The notes beneath the pieces are model-generated. The model was not told where the DNA came from. It ran no database searches and saw nothing but the letters and a program-made list of their open reading frames with translations. The translations under genes and the position numbers were made by a program. From an uncultured Chitinophaga sp. (GTDB lineage: Bacteria > Bacteroidota > Bacteroidia > Chitinophagales > Chitinophagaceae): a stretch of DNA of 64,000 bases. This document shows positions 2,227-50,696 of this stretch, piece by piece (the first letter of the stretch is position 1; every line of letters starts with the position of its first letter). The stretch covers positions 138,541-202,540 of the forward strand of contig CAZWIM010000003.1 in the NCBI GenBank assembly GCA_964634265.1, read 5' to 3'.

Positions 2227-2240
2227 GCTACAAAATTAAA

Positions 2241-2269
2241 CAAAAAGAAACCCCCGGAGAACCGGGGGT
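2241..2269 (-). terminator. Intrinsic terminator of the candidate sRNA
   Basis: Minus strand ACCCCCGG-TTCT-CCGGGGGT followed by TTCTTTTTG. Confidence 0.85.
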
Positions 2270-2340
2270 CGTGTAGAAACAAAAACCAACAATAACTCAT
2301 TTTCATGAGTTACATAAGTGTATGTAATACTTTCACCTGG
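2241..2340 (-). ncRNA. Candidate low-oxygen-induced small RNA (~100 nt)
   Basis: Perfect -7 TAGCTTTG (2351->2344) preceded by tandem FNR-like boxes; two hairpins (2310-2327; 2293-2312 with GAAA loop on the minus strand); GC-rich terminator 2250-2269 with U-tract. Confidence 0.6.
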
Positions 2341-2343
2341 AAA

Positions 2344-2409
2344 CAAAGCTAATATTGGGGATTTCAGAAAAAACTGATTATTATCAATTAATTTATTGAT
2401 TGCTGTCAG
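2344..2409 (-). promoter_or_regulatory. Tandem FNR-like boxes plus -7 element (sRNA promoter)
   Basis: CTGAT-TATT-ATCAA 2374-2387 and TTGAT-TGCT-GTCAG 2396-2409 (22 bp apart); TAGCTTTG 2351->2344. Confidence 0.8.
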
Positions 2410-2479: not shown

Positions 2480-2701
2480 ATGAAAAAAGCTGAATTGATA
2501 CCTGTTCTGATTGTAAGCAGTTTACTTCTTTTTTATGTTGTGCTGGCTTTTTTGGATAAGGCTTCGGGTTTTACATCCTTTATTTTTTCATTCTCACCAT
2601 TTTTGGTGATTTGGCTGGTATATTCTGTAATCCGTCATGGCGAATATAAAGGAAAGGAGCTAAAATCTGATGAAGAGTTCGGGTATACAGATAAACTATG
2701 A
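2480..2701 (+). CDS. Small two-TM hypothetical membrane protein
   Basis: ORF 2396..2701, with the likely start at ATG 2480 (MKKAELIP); two hydrophobic segments and a charged tail EEFGYTD. Confidence 0.7.
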   Translation: MKKAELIPVLIVSSLLLFYVVLAFLDKASGFTSFIFSFSPFLVIWLVYSVIRHGEYKGKELKSDEEFGYTDKL

Positions 2702-3852: not shown

Positions 3853-3873
3853 AATGTTGTATTGTTGGTTTTA

Positions 3874-23477: not shown

Positions 23478-23512
23478 ATAACCTGTTGCTATAACCAACA
23501 AAAAACCAACAC

Positions 23513-50277: not shown

Positions 50278-50330
50278 TTTTGTTAATTTTTTCTTTTTAA
50301 ATTCGTTTTACGACTATAAACCAACAATAT

Positions 50331-50696
50331 ATGAGAACTATTTTCTTTTCTCTGTTGATGATCATTGGCAGTTTATCTATTAATGCACAAACTGATTCGC
50401 TGGAACAATACACTGGTAAATACAAGTTCCCCGATGGAAGCCCGGTTACAGAAATTGGGATCGTTATTGAGAACGGTATATTAATGGCCACATCTGCTAT
50501 GGGCAATTCAGAATTCAGGAAAACTGATACAAAAGATGTGTTTGAAGTAGTGGCTTATGCAGGTACGGCAACTTTCAGGAGAAATGATCAGAACAAAGTG
50601 GTGGGTGTGTTAATTCAGGTACAGGATATTAATATGGAAGGAACTAAAGGGGAAGGTTTGGCAATACGACAACAATATATTAAACATATTAAATAA
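50331..50696 (+). CDS. Small secreted hypothetical protein
   Basis: Signal peptide ending INA-Q; LEQYTGKYK motif. Confidence 0.72.
   Translation: MRTIFFSLLMIIGSLSINAQTDSLEQYTGKYKFPDGSPVTEIGIVIENGILMATSAMGNSEFRKTDTKDVFEVVAYAGTATFRRNDQNKVVGVLIQVQDINMEGTKGEGLAIRQQYIKHIK

What the first reader, a model, noticed from the sequence alone, without database searches (positions are those of the whole stretch)
2271..2294. sRNA unpaired segment is complementary to start regions of its own regulator and two other genes
Seen: the unpaired segment (5'-UAUUGUUGGUUUUUG) pairs perfectly with three translation-initiation regions in this window. These are AAAAACCAACA at 23501-23511 (11 nt, -12..-2 of the REC-Crp regulator, 14 nt with one bulge), AAAACCAACAATA at 3872->3860 (13 nt, -20..-8 of ccoH) and AAACCAACAATA at 50318-50329 (12 nt, -13..-2 of the 50331 gene). 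Inference: a negative feedback loop on the regulator and tuning of cbb3 assembly. Caveat: A/C-rich leaders are common in Bacteroidota, so some matches are expected by chance.
Basis: inference. Interest (0 to 1): 0.62.

Follow-up and report, generated by a model that had tools for sequence, protein, structure and literature searches.

The report
Low-oxygen small RNA and its targets
The three matches are really there, and the U/G-rich stretch is the invariant pairing "seed" of a new, widely conserved Chitinophagaceae small RNA, but its best-supported targets are two envelope-protein genes outside this window, while the proposed feedback on the regulator is weak.

Summary
All three exact matches are confirmed at the stated coordinates. 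In this genome the 25-nt segment has 11 start-region matches of at least 11 nt, against 2.5±2.8 for shuffled or anti-leader control seeds (P≈0.02). Three of the 11 lie in this window (P≈0.002).

The RNA is real. About 70 Chitinophagaceae genomes carry it, with tandem Crp/Fnr-type boxes, a Bacteroidota −7 box, a covarying hairpin, an invariant core GUUGGUUUUYGUUUC and a terminator. It matches no Rfam family.

I compared each genome's own seed with the leaders of orthologous genes. Leaders with at least 10 nt of complementarity (background about 1%):
- **FapF-like outer-membrane channel:** 13 of 19 genomes, up to 21 nt, with compensatory changes.
- **DUF418 membrane protein:** 10 of 22, also with compensatory changes.
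- **DUF3471 gene (50331):** 9 of 30 at 9 nt or more.
- **ccoH:** 6 of 34, in several lineages and at different sites.
- **REC-Crp:** 2 of 30 at 9 nt or more, close to background.

A control gene with a 14-nt match in this genome shows no conservation.

Verdict: this is a trans-acting, probably low-oxygen-induced repressor of envelope-protein translation. ccoH and DUF3471 are plausible lineage-variable targets. The feedback loop on the regulator is unproven. The scan has not noted this RNA on other DNA.

The parts
2396..2409 (-). Distal Crp/Fnr-type box, CTGACAGCAATCAA
   Evidence: Read. 38 of 72 family promoters have two exact TGAY-N4-RTCA boxes, always spaced 22 bp apart.
2374..2387 (-). Proximal Crp/Fnr-type box, TTGATAATAATCAG
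   Evidence: In 40 family members the proximal box starts 35 nt upstream of the -7 box. 61 of 72 promoters have at least one exact box, against 0.7% of shuffled sequences.
2344..2351 (-). Bacteroidota-type -7 promoter element, TAGCTTTG
   Evidence: A TAnnTTTN element sits at the equivalent place in most family members. Its role as a promoter is inferred from the known Bacteroidota consensus.
2240..2338 (-). Predicted small RNA of about 100 nt. The transcription start is inferred, not measured.
   Evidence: Fold energy -33.1 kcal/mol, z-score -4.5 against shuffles. Homologues in about 70 Chitinophagaceae genomes. No Rfam match.
2292..2313 (-). Hairpin 2: 9-bp stem with a GAAA loop, directly 5' of the seed
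   Evidence: A hairpin is present in all 69 unique family sequences, with 35 different hairpin sequences. The structure is conserved while the sequence varies.
2271..2294 (-). The finding: single-stranded seed region. The invariant core GUUGGUUUUUGUUUC is 2290->2276.
   Evidence: The core is invariant (one Y position) in all family members, including 10 found through the terminator alone. Mean predicted unpaired probability of the core is 0.48.
2240..2270 (-). Intrinsic terminator: 9-bp G+C-rich stem, UUCU loop, U-tract
   Evidence: Compensatory changes occur at the stem base.
3860..3872 (-). 13-nt seed match in the ccoH (FixH) leader, -20..-8, directly after the ccoG stop codon
   Evidence: FixH by Pfam. 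At least 10 nt of complementarity recurs in 7 of 35 linked loci, counting this genome. Neighbouring controls: tauE 0/35, trmD 0/59 and Big_7 0/29.
23493..23511 (+). Two adjacent seed matches in the REC-Crp leader: AACCAACAA (9 nt) and AAAAACCAACA (11 nt, -12..-2)
   Evidence: domains confirmed by Pfam. Orthologous leaders in 30 genomes mostly have 8 nt or less.
50318..50329 (+). 12-nt seed match in the leader of the DUF3471 secreted-protein gene, -13..-2
   Evidence: weak DUF3471 match (E 2.2e-5, 25.2 bits, below Pfam's 29.3-bit cut-off). 9 of 30 orthologous leaders have at least 9 nt, in at least five configurations.

Best explanation
The segment is the seed of a trans-acting, base-pairing small RNA of about 100 nt. 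The RNA forms a new family confined to part of the Chitinophagaceae.

**Transcription.** It is made from its own Bacteroidota-type promoter, which sits under two Crp/Fnr-type boxes. It is therefore probably switched on with the cbb3 oxidase and nos genes when oxygen is low. Induction and the identity of the regulator are inferred.

**Mechanism.** The single-stranded core GUUGGUUUUYGUUUC and its flanks pair with A/C-rich leaders between about -25 and the start codon. Bacteroidota ribosomes need these leaders unstructured, so pairing should block initiation. The pairing is supported by covariation. Repression is inferred from the position of the sites.

**Targets.**
- The conserved core targets are mRNAs for envelope proteins: a FapF/COG4313-like outer-membrane channel and a DUF418 inner-membrane protein. 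Both lie outside this window.
- The DUF3471 gene at 50331 and ccoH are secondary targets that come and go between lineages.
- The match to the REC-Crp leader may be a recent acquisition in this lineage, or chance.
For: **Family and anatomy**
- About 73 of 80 fetched pattern hits are Chitinophagaceae members. They share promoter, hairpin, seed and terminator.
- Hairpin 2 has 35 sequence variants, all of which still fold.
- The seed is invariant even in the 10 members found through the terminator alone.
- 61 of 72 promoters have exact boxes, with 22-bp spacing and a fixed distance to the -7 box.

**Pairing with orthologous leaders** (background in 428 neighbouring genes: at least 10 nt in 0.9%)
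- Outer-membrane channel: 13 of 19 other genomes have at least 10 nt, up to 21 nt.
- DUF418: 10 of 22 other genomes have at least 10 nt.

**Compensatory changes**
- sRNA UUUUCG goes with target G in 4 of 5 cases. UUUUUG goes with target A in 14 of 14 (Fisher P=0.0013).
- sRNA C or U just 5' of GUUGG goes with target G or A (P=0.004). For the channel this holds in 11 of 11 cases.

**Energies**: channel median -18.4 kcal/mol, DUF418 -14.8, controls -8.8.

**Site positions:** all sites lie between -37 and 0.

**Own genome:** 11 leader hits against 2.5 expected. The DUF418 leader ranks 1st of 3008 by duplex energy.
Against: - No expression data.
- The direction of regulation is inferred from site position only.
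- In this genome the best-conserved target, the channel, has only a 10-nt exact match (13 of 15 with two mismatches).
- Compared genomes are related, so the binomial and Fisher P values overstate significance.
- Gene starts come from a crude home-made caller.
- A 14-nt perfect leader match in this genome (72-aa protein) is not conserved at all. This shows that single-genome matches of this length can be meaningless.
Confidence: 0.72

Rival explanations
1. In this organism the sRNA represses its own activator REC-Crp (negative feedback), ccoH (tuning of cbb3 assembly) and the 50331 gene, and these are its physiologically important targets.
For: - Exact matches of 11, 13 and 12 nt lie at -2..-20.
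- Three of the genome's 11 hits fall in this low-oxygen island.
- The REC-Crp leader has two adjacent seed matches. The two closest relatives keep 9 and 8 nt.
- ccoH and DUF3471 complementarity recurs in other lineages.
Against: - REC-Crp leaders in 30 genomes are near background (2 of 30 at 9 nt or more).
- ccoH leaders as a set do not differ from controls in energy (P=0.15).
- The nearest relative lacks the DUF3471 match (4 nt).
- The three rank 54th to 101st by energy in this genome.
- A longer 14-nt match elsewhere in the genome is not conserved.
Confidence: 0.3
2. The three in-window matches are chance products of A/C-rich, G-poor Bacteroidota leaders meeting a U/G-rich sequence, and none of them is regulated.
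For: - Leaders here are 35-63% A and about 10% G.
- Control seeds give up to 19-20 hits in individual trials.
- The 72-aa control gene shows that a 14-nt match can lack any conservation.
- REC-Crp conservation is at background.
Against: - 11 hits against 2.5 expected, using nulls that preserve leader composition.
- The hits cluster in the window (P about 0.002).
- ccoH complementarity arises repeatedly (6 of 34 against 0.12 expected), and so does DUF3471 complementarity (9 of 30 against about 2%). Different parts of the seed are used in different lineages.
Confidence: 0.2
3. The element is not a trans-acting RNA. It is instead a cis-acting leader or attenuator of the downstream Big_7-trmD genes, the 3' end of the cco operon transcript, or a small coding gene.
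For: - The terminator ends only about 14 nt before the ATG of the next minus-strand gene (2226). trmD is linked in 58 loci.
- Six family members lack boxes and directly follow a coding region.
- A 27-codon frame (ATG at 2305) runs through the seed in this genome; I read it from the sequence and ran no translation.
Against: - The family has its own promoter with fixed-geometry boxes in 61 of 72 members.
- No conserved alternative (antiterminator) pairing was seen in the single-sequence folds or the alignment fold.
- The downstream gene varies. The Big_7 protein matched only 30 of the fetched loci (29 usable leaders).
- The ATGs of the frame lie in the hairpin and are absent in members with other hairpin sequences.
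- Covariation with unlinked target leaders is not expected of a cis element.
Confidence: 0.06

Closest known systems
FnrS (Rfam RF01796), the FNR-activated sRNA of Escherichia coli and Salmonella
   Same: A small RNA of about 100 nt with its own promoter under an FNR-type box. It is presumably made when oxygen is low, and its single-stranded seed pairs with translation-initiation regions of several mRNAs to repress them. These properties of FnrS are from my own knowledge.
   Different: - No sequence or structure similarity. FnrS is not among the weak Rfam matches even at E up to 10.
- Tandem boxes rather than one.
- A different phylum, with no Shine-Dalgarno use and, to my knowledge, no Hfq.
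- The conserved targets are envelope proteins, not enzymes of aerobic metabolism.
GibS and the FopS family of Bacteroides thetaiotaomicron (PMC7366714, PMC11697453)
   Same: Same phylum and the same demonstrated mechanism. A conserved single-stranded seed pairs with translation-initiation regions. FopS represses the outer-membrane SusC porin mRNA and has canonical Bacteroidota promoters and intrinsic terminators. One FopS member is 3'-UTR-derived (PMC11697453).
   Different: - Their seed is at the 5' end; here it lies between a hairpin and the terminator.
- No sequence relation.
- Mostly a single copy per genome rather than 14 paralogues.
- The presumed signal is oxygen, not bile or glycans.
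- Any role of an RbpB-like protein is untested here.
RoxS/RsaE of Firmicutes and the envelope sRNAs MicA, RybB and OmrA/B of Enterobacteria
   Same: RoxS/RsaE responds to redox and NO and uses a seed complementary to the generic ribosome-binding sequence. MicA, RybB and OmrA/B repress many outer-membrane protein mRNAs at their start regions. This is from my own knowledge.
   Different: - Here the generic leader feature is A/C-rich rather than a G-rich Shine-Dalgarno sequence, so the seed is U/G-rich rather than C-rich.
- There is no homology.
- The regulator is different.

Membership tests
Trans-encoded base-pairing sRNA (functional class) | Independent transcription unit: own promoter and intrinsic terminator, non-coding | tested here: met
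   A -7 box and tandem boxes in fixed geometry are found in 61 of 72 members. The terminator is confirmed. No conserved reading frame. The promoter rests on motif evidence only.
Trans-encoded base-pairing sRNA (functional class) | Conserved single-stranded seed | tested here: met
   The 15-nt core is invariant apart from one Y, and it is flanked by variable sequence. It is predicted to be largely unpaired.
Trans-encoded base-pairing sRNA (functional class) | Complementarity to unlinked mRNAs that is kept through compensatory changes | tested here: met
   Outer-membrane channel 13 of 19 and DUF418 10 of 22 with at least 10 nt. Two covarying positions (Fisher P=0.0013 and 0.004), not corrected for phylogeny.
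Trans-encoded base-pairing sRNA (functional class) | The RNA is expressed and changes target expression | not testable with these tools
FnrS (RF01796) | Match to the family covariance model | tested here: not met
   No Rfam family reaches its gathering score in the window. FnrS is absent even at E up to 10 on 2200-2460.
FnrS (RF01796) | FNR-type box at an activating position upstream of the promoter | tested here: met
   TTGATAATAATCAG at 2387->2374 has one mismatch to TTGAT-N4-ATCAA (the consensus is from my own knowledge) and lies about 43 nt upstream of the inferred start. Exact TGAY-N4-RTCA boxes are conserved in the family. This is an analogy of regulation, not membership.
GibS/FopS sRNAs of Bacteroides | Sequence and structure similarity, meaning the R1 seed in the single-stranded 5' region | tested here: not met
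   No Rfam match of any Bacteroidota sRNA family. The architecture differs, with the seed 3' of a hairpin.

The most novel reading that the evidence does not exclude
Chitinophagaceae may run a small network of 'anti-leader' sRNAs. Their U/G-rich seeds would be the counterpart, in a phylum without Shine-Dalgarno use, of the anti-Shine-Dalgarno seeds of other bacteria.

Two sRNAs would share the core GUUGGUUUU: the low-oxygen sRNA described here, and a second element carried in the 3' end of the hsp20 transcript. They would converge on the same envelope mRNAs, with DUF418 as the candidate shared target.

In this lineage the low-oxygen sRNA would have additionally captured ccoH and its own activator. 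That would create an incoherent feed-forward loop on cbb3 oxidase assembly and a negative feedback loop on the oxygen response that also drives N2O reduction.
Probability: 0.25. Interest if true: 0.65.

Novelty: new member of a known kind. Interest (0 to 1): 0.5.

Why it matters
Almost nothing is known about RNA regulators in Bacteroidota outside gut Bacteroides. I found no paper on Chitinophagaceae sRNAs.

- **A new family defined by sequence alone.** The evidence gives a new sRNA family with its signal input (Crp/Fnr-type boxes shared with the cbb3 oxidase and N2O reductase island). It also gives an invariant seed and two targets supported by compensatory evolution.
- **Directly testable.** The result offers a test case for how sRNAs block initiation on leaders that lack a Shine-Dalgarno sequence.
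- **Environmental link.** It ties post-transcriptional control to the low-oxygen and N2O-reducing lifestyle of common soil and wastewater bacteria.
- **A caution for method.** Perfect 11-14-nt leader matches in one genome did not separate conserved targets from noise. The comparison across genomes did.

Tried and rejected
- **Rfam:** no match at gathering thresholds, and only noise at E up to 10.
- **RNAalifold on a MAFFT alignment:** it found only the terminator, because hairpin 2 is misaligned by sequence. I replaced this with per-sequence folds. I did not build a covariance model.
- **Single-genome RNAduplex ranking:** noisy. The conserved channel target ranks 133rd, and G:U-rich duplexes with large loops dominate the top. 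I did not use it as the main evidence.
- **First box search:** it used N6 spacing and found nothing. The correct spacing is N4.
- **Small-peptide reading:** rejected, because the ATGs are part of hairpin 2 and disappear in members with other hairpins.
- **Cis-attenuator reading:** rejected as the main model; see the rival explanations.
- **72-aa TAT-like protein:** it has the longest leader match in this genome (14 nt) but is not conserved, so I kept it as a negative control.
- **TolC-like, 239-252-aa secreted and beta-lactamase-like genes:** these carry 14-nt matches in single genomes. I did not follow them across genomes. The TolC-like leader in this genome does not match.

Full report
**Observation**

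The intergenic region 2227-2482 carries the following features on the minus strand:
- two FNR-like boxes, CTGACAGCAATCAA (2409->2396) and TTGATAATAATCAG (2387->2374);
- a Bacteroidota -7 element, TAGCTTTG (2351->2344);
- two hairpins;
- the stretch UAUUGUUGGUUUUUGUUUCUACAC (2294->2271);
- a strong intrinsic terminator (2270->2249) followed by a U-tract.

The RNA folds at -33.1 kcal/mol, z-score -4.5.

The three reported complements are present exactly as written:
- 23501-23511, 11 nt, at -12..-2 of the REC-Crp gene;
- 3872->3860, 13 nt, at -20..-8 of ccoH;
- 50318-50329, 12 nt, at -13..-2 of the 121-aa gene.

Pfam confirms Response_reg + cNMP_binding + HTH_Crp_2 for the regulator and FixH for ccoH. 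The 121-aa protein gives only a weak DUF3471 match, below Pfam's cut-off.

**Is it more than chance in this genome?**

The genome (3.6 Mb, 90 contigs) was laid out, and I called 3011 genes with a simple trained caller. Leaders are A-rich, with 63% A at -11, and G-poor.
- The 25-nt segment has an exact complement of at least 11 nt in 11 leaders (-30..+3).
- Five hundred shuffled seeds give 2.5±2.8 (P=0.018). Five hundred pseudo-seeds made from the antisense of real leaders give 2.5±2.8 (P=0.022). Leader composition therefore does not fully explain the excess.
- Three of the 11 lie in this window, which holds 67 of the 3011 genes (P about 0.002). A fourth lies 8.5 kb upstream of the window.
- By duplex energy, ccoH, the 50331 gene and REC-Crp rank 54th, 75th and 101st of 3008.

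**The RNA is a conserved family**

- BLAST in 301 family genomes found orthologues in which the seed and terminator are the best-conserved part.
- An exact-pattern scan of 185,579 species gave 109 places. Of the 80 fetched, about 73 are Chitinophagaceae (MAGs variously labelled Chitinophagaceae, Terrimonas, Chitinophaga, Sphingobacteriales or Bacteroidota) with the same architecture.
- 35 of these loci contain ccoH and 58 contain trmD, so the position between the cco operon and trmD is syntenic.
- Hairpin 2 is present in all 69 unique sequences, with 35 different sequences.
- The promoter region has at least one exact TGAY-N4-RTCA box in 61 of 72 members, against 0.7% of shuffles. 38 have two boxes, always 22 bp apart. 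The proximal box starts 35 nt before the -7 box in 40 members.
- A search anchored on the terminator alone, in 401 family genomes, recovered 10 carriers. All have GUUGGUUUUYGUUUC, so the invariance of the seed is not an artefact of the pattern used.
- No Rfam family matches, and no paper on Chitinophagaceae sRNAs was found.
- A same-genus genome without ccoH also lacks the sRNA but keeps REC-Crp.

**Comparative test of targets**

For each carrier genome I took its own seed and the -45/-50..+3 leader of the orthologue, and recorded the longest exact complement. Background was measured on 428 other genes in the sRNA neighbourhoods: at least 10 nt in 0.9%, at least 9 nt in 1.9%, at least 8 nt in 5.8%.

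| Gene | Result in other genomes |
|---|---|
| ccoH | 6 of 34 at ≥10 nt (0.12 expected from shuffled seeds) |
| 50331 gene (DUF3471) | 9 of 30 at ≥9 nt; 4 of 30 at ≥10 nt |
| REC-Crp | 1 of 30 at ≥10, 2 at ≥9, 7 at ≥8 |
| 72-aa TAT-like protein (control; 14 nt in this genome) | 1 of 27 at ≥9 nt |

- **ccoH.** The positive genomes fall in four or five lineages that use different parts of the seed. One has a compensating G opposite the C variant. Neighbouring controls give tauE 0/35, trmD 0/59 and Big_7 0/29.
- **DUF3471.** At least five site configurations occur, but the nearest relative has none.
- **REC-Crp.** The genomes with 8 nt or more cluster in this genome's clade and one other. Binomial P=0.11 for 9 nt or more.

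**Discovery of the conserved targets**

I searched 35 carrier genomes for the complement of the core. This turned up exact 14-mers directly before the start codons of secreted or outer-membrane proteins.

*The outer-membrane channel.* This is a 356-363-aa protein with no Pfam family. Its AlphaFold model (pLDDT 78.6) is a beta-barrel closest to FapF and to the COG4313 channel (Foldseek E 2e-14, TM about 0.74 on the target).
- Orthologues exist in 20 distinct carriers, counting this genome (21 of 40 handles matched, two of which are the same genome). 13 of 19 other genomes have at least 10 nt of complementarity to their own sRNA, up to 21 nt.
- The pairing follows the sRNA's variable positions. 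CGAU pairs with UAUCG-type sRNAs and CAAU with UAUUG-type. ACGAAAA pairs with UUUUCG-type and ACAAAAA with UUUUUG-type. Even the 3' flank follows (ACAG or AUUG).
- In this genome the leader keeps AACCAACAAT, which is 13 of 15 positions. Its energy rank is 133rd.

*The DUF418 membrane protein.* Its leader ranks first in this genome, with GUGUAGAAAC and AAAACCAACA in one leader.
- 10 of 22 other genomes have at least 10 nt, again with compensating G/A changes.
- The exception is where the base in question is the A of the ATG, which cannot vary.

*Across all target sets.*
- The Y position of the seed and its partner covary (4/5 against 0/14, Fisher P=0.0013). So does the base 5' of GUUGG (P=0.004).
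- Energies agree:

| Leader set | Median duplex energy (kcal/mol) | Test against controls |
|---|---|---|
| Channel | -18.4 | P=1.6e-8 |
| DUF418 | -14.8 | P=1.3e-9 |
| DUF3471 | -11.6 | P=0.0045 |
| REC-Crp | -10.0 | P=0.008, small shift |
| ccoH | -8.9 | P=0.15 |
| Controls | -8.8 | n/a |

- All sites lie between -37 and the start codon.
- These P values ignore shared ancestry and are upper bounds on significance.

**Mechanism**

- *Shown by sequence:* a conserved, structured, promoter- and terminator-bounded RNA. It has an invariant single-stranded core and coevolving complementarity to start regions of unlinked envelope-protein mRNAs.
- *Inferred:* it is transcribed under low oxygen through the tandem boxes, by REC-Crp or by one of the only two other HTH_Crp_2 matches in the genome, one of them below Pfam's cut-off. 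Pairing occludes the A-rich leader and represses translation.
- *In-window sites:* ccoH and DUF3471 are plausible targets that vary between lineages. For ccoH this would be an incoherent loop that trims one gene inside an operon induced by the same signal. The REC-Crp site is the weakest. Its two adjacent matches and partial retention in the two nearest relatives leave a lineage-specific feedback loop possible.

**Comparison with known systems**

- In regulatory logic it resembles FnrS.
- In phylum and mechanism it resembles GibS/FopS of B. thetaiotaomicron, which repress an outer-membrane porin at its start region (PMC11697453; PMC7366714).
- In target class it resembles MicA, RybB and OmrA/B.
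- In using a seed against the generic ribosome-loading sequence it resembles RoxS/RsaE.

It is not a member of any of these families. It is a new family working by a known mechanism.

**Limits**

- Gene starts come from a crude caller.
- Most carriers are MAGs.
- The statistics are not corrected for phylogeny.
- The regulator assignment and the direction of regulation are inferences.

Noticed in passing
G000 C8:28858-28903 (+), outside the window; also L006, L009, L014, L026: A second conserved element sits directly after the hsp20 stop codon: CUCAUAAGCAGUUGGUUUUGGUUUACAC plus a G+C-rich terminator. It shares the core GUUGGUUUU with the sRNA studied here. Using this genome's version of its seed, 8 of 23 DUF418 leaders have at least 10 nt of complementarity, three of them 14 nt (AAACCAAAACCAAC). 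A heat-shock 3'-UTR sRNA may therefore share targets with the low-oxygen sRNA.
   Followed up: partly
L073, L094, L097, L099, L111, L125: Six family members have no Crp/Fnr boxes, and the sRNA follows directly on a coding region. These look like 3'-UTR-derived versions of the same sRNA.
   Followed up: no
L078 and L107 (one MAG); L064 and L083 (another MAG): Two MAGs carry two copies of the sRNA. In the first MAG each copy lies next to its own ccoH, which suggests a duplicated cco-sRNA module.
   Followed up: no
L278 and L279 (other Chitinophagaceae genomes): Unrelated terminators are preceded by other U/G-rich stretches (AGUUUGUUUUUAGUUGUUUUGUUUC and CAUGUUGGUUGUUUUAAGGG). These may be further 'anti-leader' sRNAs.
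   Followed up: no
window 2483-2701 (+): A 72-aa hydrophobic ORF with no Pfam family lies between the sRNA promoter and the DsbD_2 gene and converges on that gene. Homologues appear in only 8 of the fetched loci.
   Followed up: partly
window 15169 (-) and 16398 (-) gene starts in the nos cluster: The leaders of these two genes rank 4th and 6th of 3008 by RNAduplex energy against the seed, through G:U-rich pairings with internal loops. Conservation was not tested.
   Followed up: no
G000 C15:3590 (-), outside the window: A 72-aa protein with a twin-arginine-like SRRQFF motif has the longest leader match in the genome (14 nt). The match is absent from 27 orthologous leaders, which makes it a useful negative control for single-genome target prediction.
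   Followed up: yes
L218 and L232 (channel-gene neighbourhood): The conserved channel target lies directly downstream of a 463-aa PAP2/vanadium-haloperoxidase-like gene in most genomes. In this genome an extra 220-aa ORF is inserted between them, and the leader match is shorter.
   Followed up: partly
whole genome G000: Start-region composition shows a sharp A peak at -13..-10 (63% A at -11) and about 10% G throughout. This is typical of initiation without a Shine-Dalgarno sequence.
   Followed up: no
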